Origin: an uncultured delta proteobacterium
GTDB taxonomy: Bacteria > Desulfobacterota > Binatia > UBA9968
DNA length: 64,000 nt
Assembly: GCA_963755715.1 (NCBI GenBank)
Contig: CAVWLW010000033.1
Coordinates: 96,001 to 160,000 of the forward strand
Direction: 5' to 3'
In this document: positions 20,237-32,613 of the stretch, piece after piece
Position numbering within the stretch: position 1 is the first letter of the stretch
Layout of the letters: every line of letters starts with the position of its first letter
The notes under the pieces: generated by a model
Seen by the model: only the letters and a program-made list of their open reading frames with translations
Told to the model about the DNA's origin: nothing
Databases searched by the model: none
Translations under genes and position numbers: made by a program

Positions 20237-22577
20237 ATGGCTGACTATTCCGTCGTAGGGCAATCGGTTTATCGAACGGACGCCAATCCGAAAGTGACCG
20301 GGCGGGCGCTGCATGTCGGCAATATCGAGATGCCGGGCATGCTGCACGTCGCGGTTTTGCGGAGTCCGTATGCGCATGCGCGGATTACGCGCATCGAGAA
20401 ATCGAAAGCGGAAGCGCTGGATGGCGTGGCAGTCGTATTGACCGGCGCTGAGATCGCAAAGATGCCGGGCATCGATCCGCACTTCGGGCCGGCGTTTCGC
20501 GATCAGCCGATTCTCGCCGTGGAAAGAGTCTGCTACATCGGCGATCCCGTGGTGGCGGTGGCGGCGGTCGATCGGCGCACGGCGGAAGACGCGCTCCAGC
20601 TCGTCGAGGTCGATTACGAGGCATTGCCCGCGGTCGCACGATGTGCTCGAAGCGGCGAAAGCCGGGATCGCCGCTGGTGCATGAGCAGCATCGGCCGGCG
20701 AAGGCTTTCGCCGATCTCGCCCACGTTAAAGCCGGTCAGCAATCGAACGTCTGTTATCACTTCAAGCTGCGCACCGGCGACGTCGACAAGGCGTTTGCCG
20801 AAGCTGATCGAGTATTCGAAGACACGTTCAGCTCGCCGCCGGCGCAGCATGTGCCGATGGAGCCGCACGTGACGTTGGCTTATCTGGACGAGCACGAGCG
20901 CCTTAACATCTGGACCGCGAGCCAATCGCCTTCTTATGTCCGAACGGAGATTTCTGCGACTTTCGGTATTCCCATGAACCGGATTCGCGTGCGCGTGCCG
21001 TACATCGGCGGCGGCTACGGCGCCAAGCTCTACGCCAAGCTCGAACCGCTGGTGACGGTGCTGGCGCTGATCACGAAAAAGCCGGTGCGTTACGCGCTCA
21101 CACGCGAAGAAGAATTTTTGACAATCACCAAGCACAAAGTCGTTACGAAAATCAAAACGGCAATCAAAGACGGCGCGATCACGCGCGCGTAAATGCGAAG
21201 TCTATTGGGACACCGGCGCCTACGCGGAAATCGGCCCGCGCATCGGTCACAAATCCGGCTACACATCGGCGGGGCCGTATCGCATCCCCAACGTCTGGAT
21301 CGATTCCTACTGCGTGTATACGAACAAAGTGCCCGCGGGTGCGTTCCGCGGTTTTGGCGTGCCTCAAGTTATCTGGGCCTATGATTCGCAAACCGACATG
21401 ATGGCGCGCGCGCTCGGTGTCGACCCCGTGGAATTTCGTTTGAAGCCGATGTTGGATGAAGGCGAGCGCTTCGCCACAGGTACGGTCGTGCGATCGTTCG
21501 GCATCAAAGAAGCGATCCGCCAGGCGGCCCAGGCGATCGAGTGGTCGAAGCCGAAGACCGGCGCAAAACGGAACCAAACGCCGTGGCAAAGGCATCGCCG
21601 CAGGCGTAAAGGCAGTGCTGACACCGTCGATTTCGGGTGCCATCGTCATTCTCAACGCCGATGGCACGGCCAACGTGCTTAGCAGCACCGTGGAGATGGG
21701 GCAGGGATCGGAGACAACGATGGGACAGATCGTCGCCGAGGAATTGGGCATTGCACCTGATCGCGTCCACATCGTTCAGCCGGATACCGATGTTACGCCC
21801 TATGATACGATCACGGCCGGCAGCCGTTCGACTTACCATATGGGCAATGCCGTGCGCATGGCCGCTGGAAAGATCAAAACGGAATTGTGCGAGGTGGTGG
21901 CGTCAAAACTAGAGGTAGCTCCGGACGATTTGCTATTGCGCAATGGCCGTGTCGTGGTGCGCGGTATGGAAGAGCGCGGCATGGCGATCGGTGAAATATT
22001 TCTGGCCAAGTTCGGCAGTCTCGGCACCACGCTCGCCGCCGAGGCGGTTTGCCAACCGACGGCGGCGCACATGGATCCGGAAACCGGCCAGTCGGAAAAA
22101 TGCACGGAGTATTGGTTTCCGTCGGCCACCGCCGCGGAGGTCGAGGTCGACACGGAAACAGGACGAGTTAAGATTCTCCAGCTCTTCAGCGTCGGCGACA
22201 CGGGCACCGCGATCAATCCGCGCCACTGTGAGCAGCAGTTAGTCGGCGCCGCGGTGATGCATTTAGGGCTGACGATGTTCGAGGAGATGATCTTCGACGA
22301 GGGTCAACTCGTCAATGGCTCGCTGCTCGATTATCAGGTGGCTTCGTTTAAGGATATGCCGGAGTCGATTCGACCGATTGTCGTTCAAGTGCCGCATGAA
22401 GACGGCCCTTTCGGTGCAAAAGGAGTGGGCGAAACCGGCGCATTAACAGTTGCGCCGGCGATCGCCAACGCAATCGACGACGCGGTTGGCGTGCGCATTC
22501 GCGATTTGCCGATCACGCCGGAAAAAGTTTTGCGGGCGTTGCTAGAGCAAAAAGAAAATGCCAGTGAAGGCCTTTGA
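20237..22577 (+). CDS. Xanthine dehydrogenase family molybdopterin-binding subunit (about 3 frameshifts)
   Basis: Consecutive fragments: KVTG...LRSPYAHARI; HVPMEPH...IGGGYGAK; GAFRGFGVPQ; EMGQG...AGSRST...GPFGAKGVGE. Confidence 0.88.
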
Positions 22578-22619: not shown

Positions 22620-23129
22620 TTACTGCCCCTTCGACGCGCCTTTTCTCATCGCGTCCATGTTGATGTTCGGCATGCCGGGCATCACGATATCGCCTGGCTT
22701 CTGTCCGGCTTTGCAGGGACCCAGCCATTTCGCTTCGATTACTGATGAGGATTCCTTCATCCCCGACATCGGCGGCTCATAGGTGCTCTTGATGTCGGCC
22801 TTATAGGCTGAGTCGAATTGGCCTGTGAAGACCGCGCGGGTTGTCGCGGTGCTGTTCTGCACTTTGCATACGGATTCGGCGACGATCTTGTCTCCTTCTT
22901 TGCGCATCTCATTCTTGCTGCACTGCGTTTTCTGATTTTCGCCCATCTCTTTTTTCATCAGGTCATCGGTTTTCTCGTCGACACACTGTTGCACCGCATG
23001 ACTGCCTTGGGTCTGCCCGCTCGAAATCTTGATCTCCCACAGGCCGGACTTGCGCTTGGGCGCATCGAAGGAAGCGGCGGCAGCAGCGCTGGCGGCAAAA
23101 AGGACGAGGAGCAGGGCGAAATATCTCAT
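22620..23129 (-). CDS. DUF3617 family exported protein
   Basis: Signal peptide; PKRKSGLWE; conserved Cys residues; AKWLGPCKAGQKPGD. Confidence 0.8.
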   Translation of the reverse strand: MRYFALLLVLFAASAAAAASFDAPKRKSGLWEIKISSGQTQGSHAVQQCVDEKTDDLMKKEMGENQKTQCSKNEMRKEGDKIVAESVCKVQNSTATTRAVFTGQFDSAYKADIKSTYEPPMSGMKESSSVIEAKWLGPCKAGQKPGDIVMPGMPNINMDAMRKGASKGQ

Positions 23130-23177
23130 GCTGCGATCCTTATAGGAGGAAGTTTTTCGATTGGCGCCGGACGTGAG

Positions 23178-24158
23178 TTAGATCGCCGCCGGCGAATCGA
23201 GTTCGAAGCCCAAATCCGAGATCATTTGATGGGCATCGGAGGCTTCTTGTCCCGGCGTCGTCAGGTAGCCGTTAACGAAGATCGAATTCGCCGGGTAGAG
23301 CGCCATCGGCTGCAGCGAGCGCAGGTTGATCTCTCTGCCGCCGGCGACGCGGATTTCTTTGCTCGGATTGACGAAACGAAAAAGGCAGAGAGTTTTCATG
23401 CAACGCTGCGGCGTGAGATGTTTTTTGTCCTCGAAGGGAGTTTTCGGGATTGAAGTGAGAAAATTGATCGGGATCGAATCGATGTCCATGGCGCGCAGCG
23501 ACAGTGCCAAGTCGATGATGTCCTCGTCGCTCTCGCCCATGCCGATGATGCCGCCGGAGCAGGTGCTGACGCCGGCCTGTTTGACGTTCTCAATGGTCGC
23601 GACGCGATCGTCATAGGTGTGCGTCGTGACAATTTCCGGATGGCGCGTGCGGCTGGTATTGAGGTTATGGTTGACCCGACCGACGCCGACGTCTTTGAGC
23701 CGGCGGATTTTTTCTTCGTTCATCAAGCCGAGCGAGCAGCAAATATTCATGCCGGTTTGAGCGCGGATCTCGCGCACGGCTTCAGCGATGTCGTCGATCT
23801 CTTTGTTCGTCGGGCCGCGGCCGCTGTTGACGATGCAGAACCGCACTGCGCCGGCGGCTTTGGCTTGCTTGGCATGTTCGACGAGTTTTTCTTTCGACAT
23901 GAAGGGATAGCGGTCGATGGGCGCTTCGGAGACCGAGGATTGAGAGCAGTAGTGGCAATCTTCCGGGCAAAGGCCGCTCTTGGCATTCTGCAACACGTGG
24001 ATTTGCACGCGTTTACCGTAATAGTGGCGTCGCACTTTGAATGCCGCGCTCACCAACTCGGGTAACTCCTCGTCCGTCGCGTCCAATACCGCTTTTAATT
24101 CATCTCGTTCGGGAATAATTCCTTGAAGCGCTTTGTCGGCCAACTGCTGAAAATCCAT
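23178..24158 (-). CDS. bioB: Biotin synthase
   Basis: NAKSGLCPEDCHYCSQS radical SAM motif, CCSLG, NHNLNTS, CSGGIIGMGE, SIPINFL, ANSIF..GYLTT; GAGGTAGG SD. Confidence 0.96.
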   Translation of the reverse strand: MDFQQLADKALQGIIPERDELKAVLDATDEELPELVSAAFKVRRHYYGKRVQIHVLQNAKSGLCPEDCHYCSQSSVSEAPIDRYPFMSKEKLVEHAKQAKAAGAVRFCIVNSGRGPTNKEIDDIAEAVREIRAQTGMNICCSLGLMNEEKIRRLKDVGVGRVNHNLNTSRTRHPEIVTTHTYDDRVATIENVKQAGVSTCSGGIIGMGESDEDIIDLALSLRAMDIDSIPINFLTSIPKTPFEDKKHLTPQRCMKTLCLFRFVNPSKEIRVAGGREINLRSLQPMALYPANSIFVNGYLTTPGQEASDAHQMISDLGFELDSPAAI

Positions 24159-24183
24159 TCCTACCTCCGAAGTCAGACCGTTT

Positions 24184-24648
24184 TTAACATGCGCGGTCCG
24201 GCCTTGCAAATATCGCGGCGCGAGCGTGGAATTTCCCCCACGTGTACAAGAAAGCAGCCAGGACGAAATGGAAAAAAATCGGTATCGTGCCGCCGAACCA
24301 GCGCATTTCCGGGCGCAAGATCATGGTTATAACGTAGCGCAGCAGCATACTGCCCGCATAAATCGCGCTGAAGCTGATGAGAAATCTCGCCAAACGCATT
24401 CGCGTCTGCGCAAAAAATCCTTTGCCGCGCCAGACGTCGGAGACGATCTTGACCATACCGATTAACAGGACTACCTGAGTCGCCAGCAGAGTGGGATACG
24501 GAATGAGACCGGACGCCCACTGCTCCGTAGAAGGTAGCCAGCTGACCGAAAAAAATACCACAAGAGCTTGGCCCAAGACGCGCAGAAAGAAGAGCACGGT
24601 GAGAAAAGCGAGAACGGCGCCGTGCGCGCGAAATCGACCTCGCTTCAC
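24184..24648 (-). CDS. Hypothetical 4-TM membrane protein
   Basis: Four hydrophobic segments; W.SGLIPYP.LL..Q and IPIFFH.VLA; GTGA overlap with the GH3 stop. Confidence 0.7.
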   Translation of the reverse strand: MKRGRFRAHGAVLAFLTVLFFLRVLGQALVVFFSVSWLPSTEQWASGLIPYPTLLATQVVLLIGMVKIVSDVWRGKGFFAQTRMRLARFLISFSAIYAGSMLLRYVITMILRPEMRWFGGTIPIFFHFVLAAFLYTWGKFHARAAIFARPDRAC

Positions 24649-26318
24649 GGGAGCAATTCACTGGCCGTCTTTACGACAAACTGGATTTCGCTCGCCTCCT
24701 CAGGAGTAGCGCTCAGAAGCTGCGCCTTGAGTTGCACGTCGCGCGTTCCGGGCTGGAGAGCGGCATTGGCTTTGCGCTGGAACCAGCCCGGTTTCATCAC
24801 GCACAACAGAGGTGCGCCGAGCCGCCGCGACTCGCGTTTCTGCGCATATTCGACATTGAGCGCGCGCAGGGACGCGTCCAGTTCCTGCAGCAATTGCATG
24901 AGACGTTCTTGAGCCGGCATCGCACCGTCCAATTCCACGAAGAAAGAGTAAAGAGATTCTTCCGCATCGGCACAGGCGCGAAAGTGTTGAACCGCCATTC
25001 CCGCGGCGTTTTGCGCCTGTGCCATGGCCTGGATCACCTGGTTGACGTGAAGTTTCTCTCCAGTGATGTTGGTCACATCGCGGCCTTTGCGGACGAATTC
25101 AATCAACGGCGTTTGGTTATAAAAACCGGCGACGCGAACGACGTCATTGATATCGTAGCGGTAAAGACCGGCGGCCGTGGTGAGAACGAGATAATAACTC
25201 GCTCCTGCCTCGAGCTCAGCGCAGGTAAGGATCGTGGGCGCCGGGCTGTCAATTTCCGATTCGGGAATGAACTCATAGAAATTTTCATCGATAGCAAGAA
25301 TCCCGGCCGAGCCTGAGTCGGAAATCGGCAGCGTCATCTGCGCCTCGCTTGCCATATAGCCGAGATCACGCACCGGCGTCGTCTTGCCGAACCAGCGGGC
25401 GAATTCTTGCAGACGGACGCCGACGGTACCGCCCTTCCAACAACCGATGAGTTGCAGTCGCGGCCAATATTCTCTGGGGCGGAGCGACCCGTCGCTCTTG
25501 ATTAAAGATTCGAGTCTTCTCGCGCGCGCGGGGTTTTTCCTGAGACGGCCCGCGAGCGCCGCGCGCATTTCGGGCTGGAGGTTGCACCGCGCCGTGATGG
25601 TGCCGTCGCAAATGTCCTGGATAATTTCGTGTTTATTTCGATTGACGGTTTCAACCAGCTTCAGAATCGTGCTCGGGTTGGGCGTGCCGAGAAACGTAAT
25701 ATCGTGTTCCAGTGCCAAGCGCATGATGAGATAATACTTGGCTTCGAAGTCCTTCACTTCGGCGATCTCGTAGGGTGTTGCATAAGCGTTCTGAATCCAG
25801 CTCGGAGTGCTTTGATAGATCAATCCGGAAGCCGCGCCGAAAGGGATGCCGCCCGCCGTGCGCCCCTCGACGACGGGACTCACGACACCGAGCAGCTTGC
25901 CGCTAAAAAGATCCGGATGGTCGATCAACGCGCGGTAATACCACAGTCGGGTGAGCAGGCGATGATTTCTGCGCGTGGTCTCGGTGATGGGGATCAGTTT
26001 GGGCTGGCCGGTGCTGCCGCTGGTCAGGGTGAACATCAAAACCGGCGCTGCTGTCAACGCATGGGCCTCGCCGTTTTGCGCGCACTCGATGTACGGACGC
26101 AGACGCTCGTAGTCGCCGACGGAGACTTGCGCGCGATAATCGCTGAGAGAATGAATGGCCTCGAAGTGGTGATCGCGGCCGAAGCGCGTAGCGCGATTTC
26201 GCTTGATGAGATCGAAAAGCAGGTGATTTTGGATTTCTTGCGGCTTAGCCGTCAGGTCGTGCCATCGCGTCCACTGGCGACGCGTGAGAAACGCGGCGGC
26301 TTTTAGAAGGATGCCCAT
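24645..26318 (-). CDS. GH3 family acyl-acid amido synthetase
   Basis: TSGSTGQPK (motif I), GYMASE (motif II), GLYRYDIND (motif III), ITGEKL, N.EY..KR. Confidence 0.9.
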   Translation of the reverse strand: MGILLKAAAFLTRRQWTRWHDLTAKPQEIQNHLLFDLIKRNRATRFGRDHHFEAIHSLSDYRAQVSVGDYERLRPYIECAQNGEAHALTAAPVLMFTLTSGSTGQPKLIPITETTRRNHRLLTRLWYYRALIDHPDLFSGKLLGVVSPVVEGRTAGGIPFGAASGLIYQSTPSWIQNAYATPYEIAEVKDFEAKYYLIMRLALEHDITFLGTPNPSTILKLVETVNRNKHEIIQDICDGTITARCNLQPEMRAALAGRLRKNPARARRLESLIKSDGSLRPREYWPRLQLIGCWKGGTVGVRLQEFARWFGKTTPVRDLGYMASEAQMTLPISDSGSAGILAIDENFYEFIPESEIDSPAPTILTCAELEAGASYYLVLTTAAGLYRYDINDVVRVAGFYNQTPLIEFVRKGRDVTNITGEKLHVNQVIQAMAQAQNAAGMAVQHFRACADAEESLYSFFVELDGAMPAQERLMQLLQELDASLRALNVEYAQKRESRRLGAPLLCVMKPGWFQRKANAALQPGTRDVQLKAQLLSATPEEASEIQFVVKTASELLP

Positions 26319-26324
26319 TTCGCT

Positions 26325-28196
26325 CTATCCGCGCACTTCGTGCTTGACGGTTGCGAGACGTTCCAAGACGTCTTCCCTGACTGTGACGCTGAGGCCGCGC
26401 GTTTTCAAGAGCGGTGCGCGTCCGCCTAAACCGAAAGCGACGCTTTCGTATGTGAGATCCTCGGCGAGGAGCCAAGTGCCGAAGGAGCCTTCGGCGAATT
26501 CGAGCGCAGGCAAATACGCCGCAAAGGTTCGGCCTGCGGCCGAGAGGATACCGGTTTCGCCTACTTGCGCGCCGACTTGGATCTTGATGCCTGCTTCATG
26601 CGCGAGCTTGGCGATGGCCAGGCTGCCGGTGATGCCGCCGTTTTTTGACAGGCGGATATTGAAGTAATCGCAGGCGCCAAGCTCTATGAGCCGGCGCGCC
26701 TGTTCAAGCGTGACGAGCGACTCGTCGGCCATGACCGGGATTCCACTCTCAGCGCGTACGCGTTTCATTCCTTCCAGATCTTTGGCGGGCACCGGCTGTT
26801 CGATTGCTGCCAATTTGAATTGCTCGAGTCGTTGCAATTGTTCGATTGCTTCGTGAGCATTCCAAGCGCCGTTAGCGTCCGCGCGGAGTGCGACTTCGTC
26901 GCCGACCGCTTTGCGCACGGCGTCGAGTCGCGCTGCGTCGTCGGCGGTGCCGACTTTCACTTTGACCTGGTGTAATCCAAGCCGCGCCATGCGTTTGGCG
27001 AGAGCGGCGGCATCTTTCGGCTCATCGGCAGAGATCACGCCGCTGTACACGACTTCGAAACGGGCGGGAGGAAGCAAATCCGCCAGCGCGCAATGATCAA
27101 CGCGCAAGCTCCAATCGAGCAGGGCCAATTCGACGGCGCAAAAAGCTGCATTCCACGCGACGACGGTCGTTTCGCCGTTATCGCCGCGTGTCCAGTTCGG
27201 CATTAGCGCTTGCAGGTGTTCAAGAGTTTCCCAGCCTGGCGCGAAAGTTTGACGAAAAAGTTTTGGCGCCAGGTGGTCGCGAATACGCGCGACCATGGTT
27301 TCCGTCGTTTCTCCGGTAACGTAGGAGCGCGGCAGACTTTCGCCGAAACCGCTGCGGCCGTCGCTGCCGGTGACTTTAACGATCACCGCGTCGCTTTCTT
27401 CGCGGTTGTGCAGCGCATGGCGAAAAACTTGGTGGAATGGGATGCGCAATTGGTAGATGGTTAGAGACTCGATGCGTTGGGCTTGCGCCTTCGCTATTTT
27501 ACTTCGCGTGCGTTGCTTGGAGACCGGCGGAAAGTAGTGGCGCACGAAGAGGTTGTCGCCGAGAGTGAAATGCGCGATCTGGTCGAATAACGGATCGGGA
27601 ATCTCATGAAAGTTTAAATAATCCTGGATCACTGTCACGCCTTCCTCGGCGTGGCGGATATCGACTTCGGAATGAAGCTCAAACCAGAGCAGCGCCGCTT
27701 TGGGGATGGAATAGTGATTCGTCAAGGCTGTGGCAATTTCGCTCGAACAGCGCGACAGCATGAACTCGAAGCTCATGGTTTCCAGCAGGAGAGATAGGCA
27801 AAGCTCGCGCAAGGTCGCCACCGGCACTCGGGTGGCGCAGAAGATCGCCACGCGTTTGCGCGCGTCGGTGATCAGCTGATCGACTTCATTCTCGGGAAAT
27901 CCGATGCCTCGAACCAGCTCGACCAGCAGCGCTGAGTGAGGTTTTTCCTTCTCCGAACGGCCCATTTCCTCCAAGAGATTTTCTTTCAACAGCTCGGCGG
28001 CATTGGACGGAAGAGCGGCAAAGCACAGTGCCACGATATGCGCAGACAAATAATGCGTGCGAAAAACGTTGCGGATGAACTCGTGAGCGGCTTCGGTCGA
28101 GGCGTGACCGCAAGCGAGGCTTTGATATTCTCCGGAGTCGCGAAATTCGCGGGCCGCCTCGTTGAATGCGCGGGTAATTCGCTCGACGGAGATCAT
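26325..28196 (-). CDS. Fusion of a heme-oxygenase-like diiron domain (TenA/PqqC/CADD) and an enolase-superfamily domain (muconate cycloisomerase/dipeptide epimerase type)
   Basis: N-domain: ENLLEEMG...PHSAL, SFE, WFELHSEVDIRH (E,H,E,H,D,H ligand set). C-domain: GFGESLPR.YVTGE, KVKVG, RADANG, IEQP, MADES, NIRLSKNGG. One uninterrupted frame. Confidence 0.85.
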   Translation of the reverse strand: MISVERITRAFNEAAREFRDSGEYQSLACGHASTEAAHEFIRNVFRTHYLSAHIVALCFAALPSNAAELLKENLLEEMGRSEKEKPHSALLVELVRGIGFPENEVDQLITDARKRVAIFCATRVPVATLRELCLSLLLETMSFEFMLSRCSSEIATALTNHYSIPKAALLWFELHSEVDIRHAEEGVTVIQDYLNFHEIPDPLFDQIAHFTLGDNLFVRHYFPPVSKQRTRSKIAKAQAQRIESLTIYQLRIPFHQVFRHALHNREESDAVIVKVTGSDGRSGFGESLPRSYVTGETTETMVARIRDHLAPKLFRQTFAPGWETLEHLQALMPNWTRGDNGETTVVAWNAAFCAVELALLDWSLRVDHCALADLLPPARFEVVYSGVISADEPKDAAALAKRMARLGLHQVKVKVGTADDAARLDAVRKAVGDEVALRADANGAWNAHEAIEQLQRLEQFKLAAIEQPVPAKDLEGMKRVRAESGIPVMADESLVTLEQARRLIELGACDYFNIRLSKNGGITGSLAIAKLAHEAGIKIQVGAQVGETGILSAAGRTFAAYLPALEFAEGSFGTWLLAEDLTYESVAFGLGGRAPLLKTRGLSVTVREDVLERLATVKHEVRG

Positions 28197-28240
28197 TTCG
28201 ACCCTTTCGTAGCTGTTGCGCGCTGAATAAAGAACGTAGC

Positions 28241-31200
28241 TCACGCGCCCGGCGTTTGAGTTTTTTCCTGTGCCATCGCTTTGATTTTTTTTAAGTCGAC
28301 TTTTCCAGTGCCAAGTAAGGGAAGCGCATCGATGGCGTAGAGATTTTCCCGTTTGGGAATCCAAAGCTTGGGTAGCTCGGACTGGTTCAGTTTGTTCCAA
28401 AGATCCTCTTTGCTGACGCCGTTCTGAGCGTAGAACGCGATGAGTCTCTCGCCCCGTTGCTCGTCGGGAAGGGCGGTGACGGCGGAGGCGATGCCGCCCA
28501 AGACCTCGTTGATGACCTCTTCGACTTTCATGTGCGGCACCATTTCGCCGCCGATCTTGCTAAAGCGCGAAAGCCGGTCGGTGATGCGAATGAAACCGTC
28601 TTCGTCGATGGCAGCAACATCGCCGGTGATATACCAGCCGTGGCGCATCACTTGTTCCGTGAGGTTGGGCTGGTTTAGATAGCCGAGCATCACGTTCGGG
28701 CCTTTGATGAGCAACAGCCCTTCTTGGCCGGGGCCGAGAGATTGCTCGGTCTCCGGATCGATGATCTTCGCGGCGACGCCGGGGATTGGGTGGCCGACCG
28801 TGCCGGGTTTGTGGCTGATCTGACTTTCTTTGCCGTCGACGACATCCGGCGTATTTACGGCGACCACCGGCGCGAGCTCGGTGCAGCCGTAGCCTTCCAG
28901 GATAGTGGATCCGAATCTTTCTTGATACGCGTTGGCAATTTGCCCGCGCAGCTTTTCCGCGCCGGCGATTAAATATCGCAGCGATGCGAATTGCTCTCTC
29001 GTGCAACGTCTTAAATAGCCGGCGTAAAAAGTCGGCGTGCTGATGAGCAATGTAACTTGATATTTCTGTACGGTTTCACCGATCGTTTTAGCGTCGGTGG
29101 GATTGGGATGATAGACGACGCCGAATCCGGCAAGCAGCGGCAGCCAAAGTGTGCCGGTAAAACCGAAGGAATGAAACAATGGCAATACGCCCATGATGCG
29201 ATCGCTAGCGGTGAACTGGATCACTTGGCCGATGCCTTCGACATTGGCCGCAATGTTGCGGTGCGAGAGCATGACGCCTTTGGGCGCGCCGGTGCTGCCG
29301 CTGGAAAAAATCACGGTGGCGAGATCGTCGGGCTTCTGGGCTTTGACGTAGCGACGGGTCAGCAAAAATGGGGGCAAGAGGAAAGCTTTCATCGTCGCGC
29401 CGATTTTTTTGATCGGCGTAAAAGTTTTGCGAATCTCTTCGAGAAAAACCATGCCCGCCATTTCTTTCACGCCGGCTTTGGCGAGGAAGACCCGGGAAGT
29501 GATGATGGTTTTGATGGCGCACTGCTCAACCGATGCGTCCATCGCTTCGCTGCCGGCGGTAAAATTCAAGTTGACCGGAATTTTTCCGGCGAGGAGAAGT
29601 GCGATGTTGGTCAGCGCCCCGCCGACGGACGCCGGCAGAATCACTCCCACCATCGACTCTGCAACACAATGTTTTCGCGCCCAGTTCGAGAGCAGCAGGC
29701 TGCCGATCAAGCTCTTACCGTAACTCAATTCGGTGCCGGTCGTGTCGGCCATGCAGAAAGAGAACCAGCGCCGTTTCGCCATCCGAATAAAACTGGCGTG
29801 AAGAAGGGCGGCGCTGCTTTCGCGGCGGCCAAGCGCGTTGCTTTCGAGCTCAAGGACGGCATTGCGCACTTCCTGCACGGTTGCATCGGAGCGAAGCGGC
29901 GAGCCAAAAGAGACGGTCACAGGATAGGAAAAATTTTTCGGCTGTTTCCAGAAAAATCGCCCGCTCTTGAAGCTGAAGATGCTGCCCCAAAGCTGATCGA
30001 GGTGAACCGGCACGATGGGAATATTCGTGCCTTCGACGATTTTTTCGAAGCCGCGTTTAAACGGCAGCAAGTGACCGACGCGGCTGATCGCGCCTTCGGC
30101 GAAGATGCAGACGATATGGCCCTTGTCCAGCTCGTTGCGCGCATGTTTGAGCGACTGAACGATATCGCGTCGGTTGGTTGCCGACACCGGGATCGAGTGC
30201 ATGAGGCGGAAAAACCAGTGCAAAGATTTGAGGTCGTAATAATCGCGATGCAACATGAAGCGCACGAAACGAGCCGTTGCGCCGCCGATCATGAGGGCGT
30301 CGACGAAGGAAACGTGATTCGACACGAGCAACGCGGGACCCCGCGCCGGCAGATTCTCGGCGCCGATGACCGTGATTCGATAAATCGTGTGCGTGACCAG
30401 CCAAAGAATGAACCGGACAAAATAGTCGGGGAGCAGGTAAAGAATCACCGCCGTGCCGGCCAAAGTGACCAGCCCAGTCAGCAAAATGATCGAATCCGGT
30501 GAAAAGTGCAGCGGCGTCTTCAAAATCCAGTGAATTGCCGCGGCGAGAAAGATGCCGATCGTGTTCATGAAATTGTTGGTCGCGATCAGTTGGCCTTTTT
30601 CCTCCTTGCCGCTGCGCTGCTGGAGTAATGCGTTCAGCGGCACGGCGAACAGGCCGGCGGAAAATCCAAGCAGGACCAGCGACATGCCCGTGAGAAGATA
30701 GGACGGCGCGGAGAGCGCGACCAAACCCAGACCAACGCCCATCGCAACGGAGCCCAGGGGCACCAAGCCGAGTTCGATATGGTCGCCCGAAAGGCGGCCC
30801 GCAGCGAGGCTTCCCGCGCCAATGCCGACCGCCAAAAACGTCCCAAGCAGCCCGATGTGAAACTCGTCCAGTTGCAAAAGTTCTTTGCCAAAAAAAGTAG
30901 ATTGATCTGCACGAGCGCGCCGAGAAACCAAAAAAAGGAAATCCCGATCACCGTCAGCCAAAGCGGGCGCTCGGCGCGTAAACGACGCAGGCCGTCGACG
31001 ACCTCACCGAAAGGATTGAGTCGTATCAGCTTGGCGGCGCCGGATGCGGGAACTCGAGTGATGCGCAAACTTGTCAGGCTGCCCACGACGGCGACGGCGA
31101 TCATCATGATCCCGATTACCGGTAAGTTGTGTTTCCACAGCGCAAAGATCGCGCCGCCCACGGAGGTGCCGAGAATGATCGCCATAAAGGTGCTCATCTC

Positions 31201-31641
31201 GAGCAGGCCATTGCCGCGGGACAACTCTTTTTCAGGAAGCATCTCCGGCAAAATGCCGTACTTGGCCGGACTAAAGAAGGTGGCATGGAGTCCCATGAGA
31301 AAGACGCCGGCAAGCATGGCCTGAATATGGCCGGTGAAAAATGCTCCCAGGGCCAAAACCATGATAATGATCTCGAACATTTTGACCGCCACTAAGATGG
31401 TGCGTTTGCTGTACACGTCGGCCAGATGACCCGCATAACCGGAAAAAAGCGCCGATGGCAAAATGAACAGAAAAGCGATCAGCTCGACGTAGTTATCGGC
31501 GCCGTTTGTGGCCAAATCCAGGGCGATAAACGACACCACGATTTTTAAAAAATTGTCGTTGAACGCGCCGAGGAATTGCGTGCAGAAAAAAGCAAAAAAC
31601 CCCGGCTGCCTGAGCGTATCGCTATACTTACCGTTAGCCAT
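28241..31641 (-). CDS. aas: Aas-type fusion: LplT-like MFS, acyltransferase and acyl-ACP synthetase (one frameshift at an A7 run near 30895)
   Basis: TQFLGAFNDN and FSPAKYGILPE (MFS); NHVSFVD and FAEG (PlsC-like); FSSGSTGAPKG, EGYGCTE, YITGD, DRLSRFSKIGGEMV, GKVD (adenylation). Confidence 0.9.
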
Positions 31642-31785: not shown

Positions 31786-32613
31786 ATGGATTCGCCCAAA
31801 CTGTTGCAGCGATTCAAGGAACCGCCCATAATCGATTACATGGAAATGGTTCAATTAAAAGTTCCTCAGTGGGAGAAGCACGTCGGTTTGTTGCATGGCT
31901 TCATGGGCCGGCAAGGCGGTAAAAGTGTCGGGCCTTATTCCGGGCTGAATGTTTCTTACCGAGTCGGCGACGATGCCAAGGTCGTCAGCCAAAATGTTTG
32001 CGACATGAAGCTGGCCGTCGGGATTCACGATGGCCGTATCGTAACCATGCGCCAGGTGCACGGCGATCACATCGTCGAAGTCACGGATAAAAAACTCAAA
32101 GAAGCAGGCGAAGCGGATGGCATGATCACCGGCGAATCGGATATTTATCTCGGCGTGTTAACCGCCGACTGCGTGCCGATCCTCTTCGTTGCACCGAAAC
32201 AACGACTCATCGCCGCCGTGCACGCGGGGTGGCGCGGCACGTTGGCGGGAATTGCTGACAAGACGGTGCGTTTATTCAAGAGCCAATACGACGTCGAAGC
32301 GCATGATTTGGAAGTCGCGTTTGGCCCATCCATCGGTCCCTGTTGTTATGAGGTGAAGGAGGATGTGACGGTGCCGCTGATGAAAACTTGGGGGCGCTTG
32401 ACGACCCCGAGCATCCACGTCAAAGAAGGAAAATCGTTTATCAATCTGCGCCGGCTCAATCGCGATATCGTGCGCGCATCCGGCGTCCCCGGAAAGCAGC
32501 TCTTTAACGTCGGTCCTTGCACCGCTTGCGCCATGGACCAATTCTTTTCCTACCGGCGCGAGGGCGGAGAGACCGGCCGGCAAATAAGTTTCATCGGTTG
32601 GTTGCCCTCCTAG
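31786..32613 (+). CDS. pgeF: YfiH/PgeF family purine nucleoside phosphorylase / peptidoglycan editing factor
   Basis: QVHG, ADG, TADCVP, VHAGWRG, GPSIGPCCYEV, FFSYRR..TGRQ. The true start may be near 31840. Confidence 0.9.
   Translation: MDSPKLLQRFKEPPIIDYMEMVQLKVPQWEKHVGLLHGFMGRQGGKSVGPYSGLNVSYRVGDDAKVVSQNVCDMKLAVGIHDGRIVTMRQVHGDHIVEVTDKKLKEAGEADGMITGESDIYLGVLTADCVPILFVAPKQRLIAAVHAGWRGTLAGIADKTVRLFKSQYDVEAHDLEVAFGPSIGPCCYEVKEDVTVPLMKTWGRLTTPSIHVKEGKSFINLRRLNRDIVRASGVPGKQLFNVGPCTACAMDQFFSYRREGGETGRQISFIGWLPS

What the first reader, a model, noticed from the sequence alone, without database searches (positions are those of the whole stretch)
22620..31641. Candidate new pathway operon: Aas, diiron/enolase fusion, GH3, membrane protein, BioB
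Seen: six co-oriented genes with gaps of 44, 6, -4, 25 and 48 nt. Established: Aas activates fatty acids and acylates lysolipids; heme-oxygenase-like diiron enzymes (CADD, UndA, SznF, BesC) perform oxidative C-C cleavage, decarboxylation or N-oxygenation; enolase-superfamily enzymes abstract a carboxylate alpha-proton; plant GH3 enzymes adenylate acids such as jasmonate or IAA and join them to amino acids; BioB inserts sulfur into dethiobiotin. No bioF, bioA or bioD is in the window. Inference A: oxidise, isomerise, then conjugate a fatty or aromatic acid to give an acyl-amino-acid signal or lipid, a bacterial parallel to JA-Ile logic. Inference B: a non-canonical supply of a biotin precursor by oxidative acyl cleavage. 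aas and bioB may be bystanders around a three-gene core.
Basis: partly seen in the sequence, partly recalled or inferred. Interest (0 to 1): 0.8.

Follow-up and report, generated by a model that had tools for sequence, protein, structure and literature searches.

The report
Conserved diiron-enolase plus GH3 gene module
Three of the six neighbouring genes form a small, widely scattered and so far undescribed bacterial gene module that probably builds a modified acyl-amino-acid compound, while the fatty-acid and biotin genes beside it are ordinary housekeeping neighbours.

Summary
The six co-oriented genes and their gaps (44, 6, -4, 25, 48 nt) are real. They are not one pathway. aas is the housekeeping LplT-PlsC-acyl-ACP-synthetase fusion; its split into two frames is a homopolymer assembly error. 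bioB is the genome's only true biotin synthase, and bioF-bioA-bioD lie on another contig. In two related genomes aas sits directly next to bioB and the middle genes lie elsewhere.

The middle genes are a conserved module: a heme-oxygenase-like diiron domain fused to an enolase-superfamily domain, a GH3 amide synthetase, and a 4-helix membrane protein. Fusion plus GH3 recur in 16 of 16 Dehalococcoidia loci. Among 60 distant metagenome loci chosen by the enolase alone, GH3 lies directly downstream in 44 of 46 that could be judged.

The enolase clade has Arg where the MLE subgroup has its second catalytic Lys, which argues against a classical two-base racemase. Neighbours in distant loci are lipid-flavoured.

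Best reading: the module makes a tailored N-acyl amino acid; this chemistry is inferred. The biotin idea is not supported. No description was found in print.

The parts
28241..31641 (-). aas: tripartite LplT (MFS) - PlsC acyltransferase - acyl-ACP synthetase gene. A neighbour, not part of the conserved module. Read in two frames in the window.
   Evidence: The two pieces score 1173.6 and 202.4 bits on NCBIfam PRK08633. The intact 1130-aa ortholog in G018 scores 1391 against a cut-off of 1221.
30890..30896 (.). A7 homopolymer (T7 on the coding strand) where the aas frame breaks. An assembly error.
   Evidence: Sequence read. Contigs of X1 and X4 (DNA) and X16 (RNA library) all put in one more A behind 30889, at full depth (table 4). 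Relatives read the gene in one frame.
27492..28196 (-). Heme-oxygenase-like diiron oxidase (HDO) domain of the fusion, residues 1 to about 235.
   Evidence: PF14518, 56.8 bits against 28.9. The ligand positions E76/E77, H87, E144, H175, D179 and H182 are invariant in 18 family members and align to the CADD metal site. The model has pLDDT 91.5, with a low-confidence linker at residues 227-236. The best fold matches are CADD, HrmI, UndA and RohS.
26325..27476 (-). Enolase-superfamily (MLE-subgroup-like) domain of the fusion, residues 241-623, belonging to a clade with Arg at the beta-6 catalytic position.
   Evidence: MR_MLE_C 179 bits and MR_MLE_N. K412-x-K414, D440, E466 and D491 are conserved. 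R515 aligns to YkfB K268 and K518 to K271. S571-F-G573 stands where dipeptide epimerase 3Q45 has D-F-D.
24645..26318 (-). GH3-family acyl-acid amido synthetase, the invariant partner of the enolase clade.
   Evidence: PF03321, GH3_M and GH3_C all over their cut-offs. OlsH model 138 bits against 620. Plant GH3 structures are the best solved relatives. It is adjacent to the enolase.
24184..24648 (-). 154-aa four-helix membrane protein of no known family, a frequent third member of the module. Its start overlaps the GH3 stop by 4 nt.
   Evidence: No Pfam or NCBIfam hit. The Atlas gives only unnamed clusters. Homologs occur in the Binatia loci, two Dehalococcoidia loci, 10 distant metagenome loci and G306. 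There are 24 invariant residues in 13 sequences. The model has pLDDT 87.9 and no PDB fold match.
23178..24158 (-). bioB, biotin synthase. A housekeeping neighbour, not part of the module.
   Evidence: TIGR00433, 406 bits against 225. It is the only match over the cut-off in the genome. It is adjacent to aas without the core in G041 and G042.
22620..23129 (-). DUF3617 protein with an N-terminal signal-like sequence. A neighbour, syntenic only in close relatives.
   Evidence: PF12276, 52 bits. Found beside bioB only in Binatia-like loci.

Best explanation
The six-gene row is a composite. A portable module has come to lie between two housekeeping genes, aas and bioB, which are themselves direct neighbours in related genomes. 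The module consists of the HDO-enolase fusion, GH3 and a 4-helix membrane protein.

How the module most likely works (inferred):
1. GH3 uses ATP to adenylate a carboxylic acid, probably a fatty or other hydrophobic acid, and joins it to the amino group of an amino acid. This gives an N-acyl amino acid with a free alpha-carboxylate.
2. That carboxylate docks on the Mg site of the enolase domain. The single conserved base, Lys414, removes the alpha-proton.
3. The second catalytic Lys is replaced by Arg515. The outcome is therefore more likely a one-base reaction, such as beta-elimination or dehydration, or a stereo-inversion using another acid, than the classical two-Lys racemisation.
4. The fused diiron HDO domain supplies the O2-dependent step on the same molecule: hydroxylation, desaturation or oxidative cleavage.
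5. The membrane protein handles the product at the membrane.

What is shown: the gene content, the residues, the conservation of the module, and its independence from aas and bioB.
What is inferred: the substrates, the order of steps and the product.
For: **Module is conserved**
- Fusion-GH3 in 10 of 10 same-genus loci with sequence available.
- Fusion-GH3 in 16 of 16 Dehalococcoidia loci, at 45-51% identity.
- In loci picked by the enolase motif alone, GH3 lies directly downstream in 15 of 15 close and 44 of 46 distant loci. An HDO lies directly upstream in 18 of 18 close and 29 of 41 distant loci; 27 of those 29 are separate ORFs.
- G306 has the order Memb154-HDO-ENO-GH3.

**Module is independent of aas and bioB**
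- G041 and G042 have aas directly followed by bioB, with the core elsewhere in the same genomes.

**Enolase domain**
- Its nearest solved relatives all act on N-acylated amino acids or dipeptides: YkfB at 138 bits, and the N-succinyl-Arg/Lys racemase 2P88 at 131 bits.
- The DxD that binds a free N-terminus is absent. The window has S-F-G; 2P88 has L-T-G at the same place.
- R515 is invariant in 21 of 21 fusions and in 28 of 28 sampled representatives.

**Bacterial GH3 precedent**
- OlsH joins a fatty acid to ornithine (PMC12493201: abstract and section 8; PMC12971839: passages).

**Lipid-flavoured context in distant loci**
- A di-iron FA_hydroxylase gene stands in the HDO position (L142).
- FadL (L144) and MMPL (L137).
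- ICMT-like methyltransferases after GH3 (4 loci).
- LCM carboxyl methyltransferases after GH3 (3 loci).
- CocE/NonD hydrolases after the membrane protein (5-6 loci).
- An adenylation-thiolation-reductase protein (L138/L140).
- Source.
Against: - No substrate, product or activity was tested. The order of steps is a guess.
- Gene order (HDO, enolase, GH3) and the variable upstream partner fit equally well with HDO and enolase preparing the acid that GH3 then conjugates. The upstream partners seen are HDO, alpha/beta-hydrolase, FA_hydroxylase, or a beta-propeller plus a chorismatase-like protein.
- The chorismatase-like neighbour (3 loci; 52 bits against a cut-off of 325) hints at aromatic rather than fatty acids.
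- The window GH3 scores only 138 of the 620 bits needed for OlsH.
- The lipid-flavoured neighbours occur in one to six loci each. Some loci are near-duplicates (L138/L140, L124/L130).
- Metagenome contigs are not independent samples.
- aas-like genes recur near the module in L149 (61% identity) and G306 (41% identity, 2 kb away beyond an opposite-strand gene), so aas may not be a pure bystander in this class.
Confidence: 0.45

Rival explanations
1. Front-end reading. The HDO, or its substitutes in other lineages, and the Arg-variant enolase make or reshape the carboxylic acid. This could be by oxidative cleavage or hydroxylation followed by MLE/OSBS-like one-base elimination, aromatisation or lactonisation. 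GH3 acts last and conjugates that acid to an amino acid. The product need not be a lipid.
For: - Gene order is HDO-enolase-GH3 in nearly all loci.
- The HDO and enolase are fused or have abutting ORFs, which suggests consecutive steps.
- The upstream partner is interchangeable: HDO in 29 of 41 loci; alpha/beta-hydrolase in 2 loci plus three fused representatives (P0194, P0209, P0254); FA_hydroxylase in 1; beta-propeller plus chorismatase-like in 3-5.
- The best NCBIfam hit of the enolase domain is muconate/chloromuconate cycloisomerase, at 147 bits.
- In OSBS the beta-6 Lys is not an acid/base (bioRxiv 10.1101/2022.03.03.481873, passages), so an Arg there suits this chemistry.
- Plant GH3.12 is named a 4-substituted benzoate-glutamate ligase among the solved relatives.
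Against: - The closest solved relatives by score are dipeptide or N-succinyl-amino-acid epimerases, not MLE or OSBS.
- The muconate cycloisomerase score is far below its cut-off (147 against 335).
- The two bacterial GH3 cases found in print concern a fatty or lipid-like acyl group and ornithine: OlsH, assayed, and the legionellol GH3, only suspected by its authors.
- Membrane and lipid-type neighbours are frequent.
Confidence: 0.3
2. The whole row from aas to the membrane protein is one functional unit for an acyloxyacyl amino lipid. GH3 would make the lyso-lipid. Aas, with its PlsC-type acyltransferase, acyl-ACP synthetase and LplT flippase, would add the second acyl chain or supply the acyl groups. 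The fusion would tailor the head group.
For: - The genes are co-oriented with a 44-nt gap, and no minus-strand terminator was found.
- aas precedes the fusion in 11 of 11 fetched same-genus loci.
- aas-like genes recur near diverged modules in L149 and G306.
- From recall, not from a call: OlsA, the O-acyltransferase of ornithine lipids, is a PlsC-family enzyme.
Against: - aas is absent within 10 kb in 16 of 16 Dehalococcoidia loci. An Aas homolog of 40% identity or more is absent in 59 of 60 distant loci.
- In G041 and G042 the module lies away from aas.
- In G306 an opposite-strand TPR gene separates them.
- The aas gene matches the housekeeping PRK08633 equivalog above its cut-off.
Confidence: 0.1
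3. Reader's inference B. The core supplies a biotin precursor, a pimeloyl moiety, by oxidative acyl cleavage, and this feeds BioB through the canonical late steps.
For: - bioB lies 25 nt downstream of the core in the window.
- No BioC over its cut-off (best 68.7 bits against 184.95) and no BioW were found in a genome that is 93.6% complete. The pimeloyl source is therefore unassigned.
Against: - bioB is linked to the core only in close relatives: 0 of 16 Dehalococcoidia loci, 0 of 60 distant loci, and not in G306.
- bioB stays next to aas when the core is elsewhere.
- bioF-bioA-bioD form their own cluster on another contig with none of the core genes.
- A GH3 amide synthetase has no role in any known pimelate route (established knowledge).
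Confidence: 0.02

Closest known systems
OlsH/OlsI ornithine-lipid pathway of Singulisphaera acidiphila (PMC12493201, abstract and section 8 read; review PMC12971839, passages read)
   Same: Both use a bacterial GH3-family enzyme that activates a carboxylic acid with ATP and forms an amide with an amino acid. Alpha/beta-hydrolase genes lie near the module in some lineages, as OlsI does in planctomycetes. The authors themselves expect OlsH homologs elsewhere to make other N-acyl amino acids.
   Different: The window GH3 scores 138 bits against the 620-bit OlsH cut-off. Its constant partner is an enolase-superfamily protein, usually with an HDO, and not OlsI. The words enolase, racemase and epimerase do not occur in the OlsH paper. 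The product is unknown.
[quoted passage not shown]
   Same: These are the best solved relatives, at 123-138 bits. They share the K-x-K at beta-2 and the D/E/D metal ligands. The substrate class would be N-acylated amino acids with a free carboxylate.
   Different: The beta-6 catalytic Lys is Arg515, invariant in the whole clade. The DxD motif is S-F-G. All NCBIfam models are far below their cut-offs. The domain is fused to an HDO.
Heme-oxygenase-like diiron oxidases: CADD (closest), HrmI, UndA, RohS, FlcD
   Same: Same fold (TM 0.66-0.76 to CADD) and six conserved carboxylate and histidine ligand positions.
   Different: Only 15-16% identity to CADD. The CADD self-sacrificing Tyr27 and Lys152 are not conserved. 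TIGR04305 scores 26 against 200. No described HDO is fused to an enolase domain in the papers found.
Plant GH3 conjugation logic (JAR1, GH3.12/PBS3, IAA-amido synthetases)
   Same: Same three-domain GH3 architecture, with a full-length alignment to VvGH3-1, OsGH3.8 and JAR1. The idea of acid-amino-acid conjugates is shared.
   Different: Scores are only 83-124 bits. The setting is a bacterial operon with oxidase and enolase partners that plants lack.
Legionella pneumophila legionellol cluster (lpg2225 GH3; PMC5640695, passages read)
   Same: A bacterial GH3 sits inside a lipid-type biosynthetic cluster. Its authors suspect that it attaches a modified amino acid.
   Different: The partners there are polyketide and fatty-acid genes, with no HDO or enolase. 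The GH3 role there is also unproven.
LplT-Aas (PRK08633) and BioB (TIGR00433)
   Same: The two flanking genes are ordinary members of these families.
   Different: They are not part of the conserved module.

Membership tests
GH3 acyl-acid amido synthetase family | Three-domain GH3 architecture (N, middle, C) over the Pfam cut-offs | tested here: met
   PF03321 232 bits, PF23571 85 bits and PF23572 62 bits, each against a cut-off of 23.6. Full-length alignment to 4B2G, including the Ser/Thr-Gly nucleotide-binding stretch.
OlsH (lyso-ornithine lipid synthetase) equivalog | Score over the NCBIfam NF052613 cut-off | tested here: not met
   138.1 bits against 620, and only residues 282-515 are matched.
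OlsH/OlsI pathway | An OlsI-type alpha/beta-hydrolase in the same operon | tested here: not met
   No alpha/beta-hydrolase lies in the window row. Alpha/beta-hydrolases occur near the module only in some distant loci.
Heme-oxygenase-like diiron oxidase (HDO) superfamily | PF14518 match, HO-like helical fold and conserved Glu/His/Asp metal ligands | tested here: met
   56.8 bits against 28.9. E76/E77, H87, E144, H175, D179 and H182 are invariant. Foldseek probability 1.00 to CADD, HrmI and UndA.
CADD-type self-sacrificing pABA synthase | Conserved sacrificial Tyr27 and Lys152, and a TIGR04305 score over the cut-off | tested here: not met
   The aligned positions are Y24 in the window, which is F, V or L in most of the other 17 members, and I154 (residues taken from PMC11965152). 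TIGR04305 scores 26.3 against 200.
Enolase superfamily | Barrel domain with three carboxylate metal ligands at the ends of strands 3, 4 and 5 | tested here: met
   D440, E466 and D491 align to the YkfB ligands and are invariant.
[quoted passage not shown] | Catalytic Lys at the end of both the second and the sixth beta-strands (bioRxiv 10.1101/2022.03.03.481873, passage) | tested here: not met
   The beta-2 K412-x-K414 is present. The beta-6 position is Arg515 (N-I-R-L-S-K-N-G-G against YkfB N-I-K-L-M-K-A-G-G), invariant in 21 of 21 fusions and in 28 of 28 sampled representatives.
Dipeptide epimerase (L-Ala-D/L-Glu epimerase) family | DxD motif at the end of strand 8 that binds the free N-terminal ammonium. 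The role of the motif is recalled, not taken from a call. | tested here: not met
   D-F-D in 3Q45 aligns to S571-F-G573. NF041118 scores 109 against 500 and NF011708 scores 93 against 343.
Muconate/chloromuconate cycloisomerase (TIGR02534) | Score over the curated cut-off | tested here: not met
   146.9 bits against 334.95.
Biotin synthase BioB | TIGR00433 over its cut-off, radical-SAM CxxxCxxC motif and BATS domain | tested here: met
   406.3 bits against 225. Radical_SAM and BATS domains are present. The motif C-P-E-D-C-H-Y-C is visible in the translation.
Tripartite LplT-Aas (PRK08633) | MFS, PlsC acyltransferase and AMP-binding domains in one protein that scores over the cut-off | tested here: met
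   The window pieces score 1173.6 and 202.4 bits, and the frame break is an assembly error. The intact ortholog, about 82% identical by tblastn, scores 1391 against 1221. The window gene itself was not re-scored as one protein.

The most novel reading that the evidence does not exclude
The Arg-for-Lys enolase clade and its GH3 partner define a widespread, unrecognised class of bacterial acyl-amino-acid metabolites, either lipoamino acids or signals. An O2-dependent diiron oxidation and a new single-base enolase-superfamily reaction on the amino-acid alpha-carbon, for example formation of a dehydroamino acid, would tailor the GH3 product. That would be a new reaction type for the MLE-like enolases and the first HDO known to work as a fused partner of one.
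Probability: 0.35. Interest if true: 0.8.

Novelty: new variant of a known kind. Interest (0 to 1): 0.62.

Why it matters
Bacterial GH3 enzymes were assigned a function only in 2025 (OlsH), and its authors expect other homologs to make other N-acyl amino acids. This work identifies a specific GH3 clade with a constant partner: an enolase-superfamily clade that has given up one of the two catalytic lysines that define its subgroup. Usually a diiron HDO is present as well.

The module recurs across at least two phyla and many uncultured soil, sediment and aquatic lineages. Near-identical copies of this window's version occur in soil metagenomes of several studies.

It gives three enzyme fields (GH3, HDO, enolase superfamily) a compact target of two to four genes that can be expressed to find a new metabolite and possibly a new reaction.

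It also removes a false lead. The biotin and Aas genes are neighbours by synteny, not pathway members.

Tried and rejected
**Tools and searches that gave nothing**
- The promoter and terminator scan was not above chance: 5 promoter-like sites against 4.4 expected, 11 terminator-like sites against 14.5.
- The membrane protein has no Pfam or NCBIfam match, only unnamed Atlas clusters, and no PDB fold match at E <= 0.001.
- Literature searches for the combination HDO / enolase / GH3 found no relevant paper. The OlsH paper does not mention enolase, racemase or epimerase.

**RNA evidence**
- Contigs from two RNA libraries (X15, X16) lie on parts of bioB, GH3, the fusion and aas. One 212-nt contig bridges the GH3-fusion junction (table 8).
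- Contigs in an RNA library do not prove transcription or a single transcript, so this was not used as evidence.

**Ideas considered and dropped**
- CADD-type pABA synthesis: the sacrificial residues are not conserved.
- A D-amino-acid theme. It was suggested by the neighbours in the alternative Binatia loci: a class IV aminotransferase, a D-glutamate-cyclase-like protein and an amidohydrolase. It was dropped for three reasons. The amidohydrolase scores as a hydantoinase/dihydropyrimidinase type. The aminotransferase scores best as a branched-chain type, below its cut-off. The orthologs are scattered over five contigs in G000.
- An amidohydrolase and an M20 peptidase near the module in three loci are hutF and argE over their own cut-offs, so they are housekeeping genes.
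- The Dehalococcoidia neighbours rpsO, pnp, dapB and asd are housekeeping genes.

**Not done**
- The 455-aa protein that replaces the HDO in 5 loci looks like a beta-propeller only by Atlas structure. It has no sequence family.
- Supplementary files of the papers were closed. The accession lists and trees of the OlsH paper might show whether this GH3 clade was sampled there.

Full report
**1. Observation**

| Gene | Coordinates | Spacer to the next gene |
|---|---|---|
| aas | 28241-31641 | 44 nt |
| diiron/enolase fusion | 26325-28196 | 6 nt |
| GH3 | 24645-26318 | 4-nt overlap |
| 154-aa membrane protein | 24184-24648 | 25 nt |
| bioB | 23178-24158 | 48 nt |
| DUF3617 protein with a signal-like N-terminus | 22620-23129 | (last gene) |

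- GH3: its N, middle and C domains.
- Fusion: PF14518 (iron-containing redox enzyme) at residues 39-194, and MR_MLE_N and MR_MLE_C at 252-610.
- BioB: TIGR00433, 406 bits against a cut-off of 225.
- Aas: matches the tripartite LplT-PlsC-acyl-ACP-synthetase model PRK08633.

The promoter and terminator scan gave nothing above its shuffled expectation.

**2. The break in aas is an assembly error**

- In the window aas is read in two frames. The break falls in a run of seven A at 30890-30896.
- Short-read contigs of two DNA runs from different studies (X1, X4), and one contig from an RNA library (X16), all carry one more A there at full depth (table 4).
- Relatives read the gene in one frame.
- The intact 1130-aa ortholog of G018 passes the PRK08633 cut-off, 1391 against 1221.
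- bioD on another contig is likewise matched in two overlapping pieces. Several related assemblies show the fusion or GH3 in pieces. This fits indel-prone assemblies.

**3. Biotin genes**

- bioB in the window is the only match over the BioB cut-off in the 7.4-Mb genome, which is 93.6% complete.
- bioF, bioA and bioD lie together at G000:C54:25888-29195.
- No BioC over its cut-off was found (best 68.7 bits against 184.95). No BioW was found.
- The pimeloyl source is therefore unassigned, but nothing ties it to the core.

**4. What is conserved**

*Within the genus*
- The fusion was found in 14 of 24 other genomes. The count is 13 of 23 without G005, which is flagged unpublished.
- It was found in 0 of 16 genomes of two other families of the order, where only enolase paralogs of about 30% identity match.
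- Of 11 fetched same-genus loci, all have aas upstream. Ten of the 10 with sequence available have fusion-GH3-membrane protein. Nine of 10 have bioB after it.
- This is kinship, not independent evidence.

*Across genome collections*
- A scan of one genome per species with an HDO-domain alignment gave 33 loci.
- Sixteen come from Dehalococcoidia/Chloroflexota MAGs. All 16 have a full-length fusion (45-48% identity) directly followed by GH3 (44-51%). None has aas or bioB within 10 kb.
- Their other neighbours are housekeeping genes: rpsO, pnp, dapB, asd and a ZnuA-like gene. In three loci a flavin monooxygenase-like gene follows GH3.
- Four Binatia-like loci (L031, L032, L035, L041) have fusion-GH3-membrane protein followed by a class IV aminotransferase, with no aas or bioB.
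- In the genomes that hold L031 and L035, aas is directly followed by bioB at about 160 nt.
- The core therefore sits between two genes that are neighbours in their own right. It is found elsewhere in related genomes. The direction of the move cannot be told without a rooted tree.
- In an even sample of 300 other genomes of the phylum, the HDO domain was found in one, G306. Its locus reads membrane protein-HDO-enolase-GH3, unfused.

**5. A much wider family**

*The enolase clade*
- An exhaustive representative search found three or four clusters with the fused architecture, and hundreds of stand-alone enolases of about 380 aa at 36-54% identity (744 proteins at E <= 1e-30).
- All 28 representatives that I sampled carry the same motif, N-[ILV]-R-x-[SAG]-K-x-G-G.

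*The metagenome scan*
- A scan with that clade's alignment used this motif as its pattern and kept the best 80 of 589 confirmed loci.
- The loci were chosen by the enolase only.

| Group of loci | GH3 directly downstream | HDO directly upstream |
|---|---|---|
| 20 close loci (enolase >= 60% identical to the window) | 15 of 15 with >= 500 nt downstream | 18 of 18 (17 in the same ORF) |
| 60 distant loci (40-53% identical) | 44 of 46 with >= 500 nt downstream | 29 of 41 with >= 700 nt upstream (27 as a separate ORF) |

- Among the distant loci, an alpha/beta-hydrolase lies upstream in 2.
- The two misses have a FadL/TodX outer-membrane transporter (L144) and an MMPL protein (L137) after the enolase.
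- A homolog of the membrane protein is present in 10 of 29 distant loci with >= 2600 nt downstream.
- bioB is in 0 of 60 distant loci. An Aas homolog of 40% identity or more is in 1 of 60 (L149).
- Some contigs are near-duplicates (L138/L140, L124/L130). Metagenome contigs are not independent.

*Accessory neighbours in the distant loci*

| Neighbour | Position | Loci |
|---|---|---|
| CocE/NonD (S15) hydrolase | after the membrane protein | 5-6 |
| ICMT-like membrane methyltransferase | after GH3 | 4 |
| LCM-type carboxyl methyltransferase | after GH3 | 3 |
| Di-iron FA_hydroxylase gene, with an M19 dipeptidase | in the place of the HDO | 1 (L142) |
| Unknown 455-aa protein, beta-propeller-like by Atlas structure only | in the place of the HDO | 5 |
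| Chorismatase-like/RidA-domain protein (52 bits against a cut-off of 325) | beside that 455-aa protein | 3 of those 5 |
| Adenylation-thiolation-reductase protein | nearby | L138/L140 |

**6. The proteins**

*HDO domain*
- It is modelled with pLDDT 91.5, and the linker (residues 227-236) has low confidence.
- The best fold matches are CADD (TM 0.66-0.76, 15-16% identity), then HrmI, UndA, RohS, PqqC and FlcD.
- E76/E77, H87, E144, H175, D179 and H182 are invariant in 18 fused and unfused members. They align to the CADD metal-site motifs.
- The CADD sacrificial Tyr27 and Lys152 (PMC11965152, passages) align to Y24, which is F, V or L in most members, and to I154. This is not a CADD-type pABA synthase.

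*Enolase domain*
- Its best solved relatives are L-Ala-D/L-Glu epimerase YkfB (138 bits), other dipeptide epimerases, and the entry 2P88 (131 bits). From recall, 2P88 is an N-succinyl-Arg/Lys racemase. These score ahead of muconate cycloisomerases (about 94-104 bits) and OSBS (81 bits).
- K412-x-K414, D440, E466 and D491 align to the YkfB catalytic and metal residues.
- YkfB K268, the Lys at the end of strand 6, aligns without gaps to Arg515. K518 aligns to YkfB K271.
- R515 is invariant in 21 of 21 fusions from both phyla.
- A preprint on the MLE subgroup states three relevant points (10.1101/2022.03.03.481873, passages):
  - Members have catalytic lysines at the ends of strands 2 and 6.
  - The residue three positions later supports two-base 1,1-proton transfer.
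  - In the OSBS reaction the strand-6 Lys is not an acid/base.
- The D-F-D of dipeptide epimerase 3Q45 aligns to S571-F-G573, and to L-T-G in 2P88. That DxD binds the substrate's free ammonium is my recollection, not a call.
- The clade also has an invariant His (H260), and the motif P-R-x-Y-V-T-G-E in the capping domain.

*Membrane protein*
- It is a confident four-helix bundle (pLDDT 87.9) with 24 invariant residues, many of them polar.
- It has no relative in Pfam, NCBIfam or the PDB.

**7. Interpretation**

*Shown*
- The module is real and conserved across phyla.
- It is independent of bioB.
- It is not generally linked to aas.

*Inferred: what it does*
- I prefer a tailored N-acyl amino acid, for these reasons:
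  - The only biochemically defined bacterial GH3 joins fatty acids to ornithine (PMC12493201).
  - The nearest relatives of the enolase domain all act on N-acylated amino acids.
  - The enolase domain lacks the motif for a free N-terminus.
  - Carboxyl methyltransferases after GH3 suggest a product with a free carboxylate.
  - Membrane and lipid-type neighbours recur.
  - In one locus a di-iron fatty-acyl-hydroxylase-family gene stands where the HDO usually is. That is the family of OlsE, which hydroxylates the ornithine head group (PMC12971839, passage).
- Arg515 argues for a single-base reaction rather than classical racemisation.

*The main rival*
- The HDO and enolase may prepare the acid that GH3 then conjugates.
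- It is favoured by the gene order, the fusion, the interchangeable upstream enzymes and the chorismatase-like neighbour.
- I cannot separate the two readings by computation.

*Caveat on aas*
- aas recurs near diverged modules in L149 and G306. In G306 it lies beyond an opposite-strand TPR gene.
- A looser functional tie within this class cannot be excluded.

**8. Novelty**

- Searches for the combination HDO / enolase / GH3 found no relevant paper.
- The OlsH paper and the review discuss GH3 homologs in other phyla without this context.
- A Legionella cluster contains a GH3 suspected of attaching a modified ornithine (PMC5640695, passages).
- I rate the module a new variant of a known kind: GH3-dependent acyl-amino-acid synthesis. 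Within it is an enolase clade that departs from a defining feature of its subgroup.
Supplements of papers were closed and were not seen.

Noticed in passing
window 30890-30896: The aas frame break is a missing base in an A7 run. Short-read contigs of X1, X4 and X16 have A8. The window assembly therefore carries homopolymer errors.
   Followed up: yes
G000:C54:26086-26599: bioD matches its model in two overlapping pieces in different frames. This is probably another indel error of the assembly.
   Followed up: partly
window 23143-23146: Short-read contigs differ from the window by small insertions and a 2-nt deletion in the bioB-DUF3617 spacer (table 4).
   Followed up: no
G000:C50:98443-101313: A truncated paralog of the membrane protein (61 aa, 56% identical, 99329-99511) lies directly upstream of a CocE/NonD S15 hydrolase (99517-101313). 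That hydrolase is 60% identical to the one that follows the membrane protein in distant module loci. A 274-aa ORF just upstream (98443-99267) looks like an IS200-type transposase to me; this was not tested.
   Followed up: partly
P0194, P0209, P0254; loci L139, L143: The same Arg-variant enolase clade also occurs fused to, or preceded by, an alpha/beta-hydrolase instead of an HDO.
   Followed up: partly
L096, L097, L105, L121, L123: A variant module lacks the HDO. It has an unknown 455-aa protein (beta-propeller-like by Atlas structure), the enolase and GH3; three of these loci also have a chorismatase-like/RidA-domain protein. An ICMT-like methyltransferase follows GH3 in L097, L121 and L123 (and in L099).
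   Followed up: partly
L142:4080-7389: An M19 membrane dipeptidase and a di-iron FA_hydroxylase-family gene directly precede the enolase, where the HDO usually lies.
   Followed up: no
G015:C2:673774-673989: A 72-residue match (75% identity) to the HDO domain alone, in a same-genus genome that otherwise lacks the fusion. It may be a remnant.
   Followed up: no
window 21456-22577 and 31786-32613: The flanking plus-strand genes are a molybdopterin cofactor-binding domain protein (MoCoBD_2) and a Cu-oxidase_4 (YfiH-type) protein. Both are syntenic in relatives.
   Followed up: partly
window 22620-31641: Contigs of DNA runs labelled soil metagenome, from at least seven studies, hold 84-91% of the sampled words of this stretch. 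I laid only X1 and X4; both cover all 30 depth bins, with long near-identical pieces over most of the stretch.
   Followed up: partly
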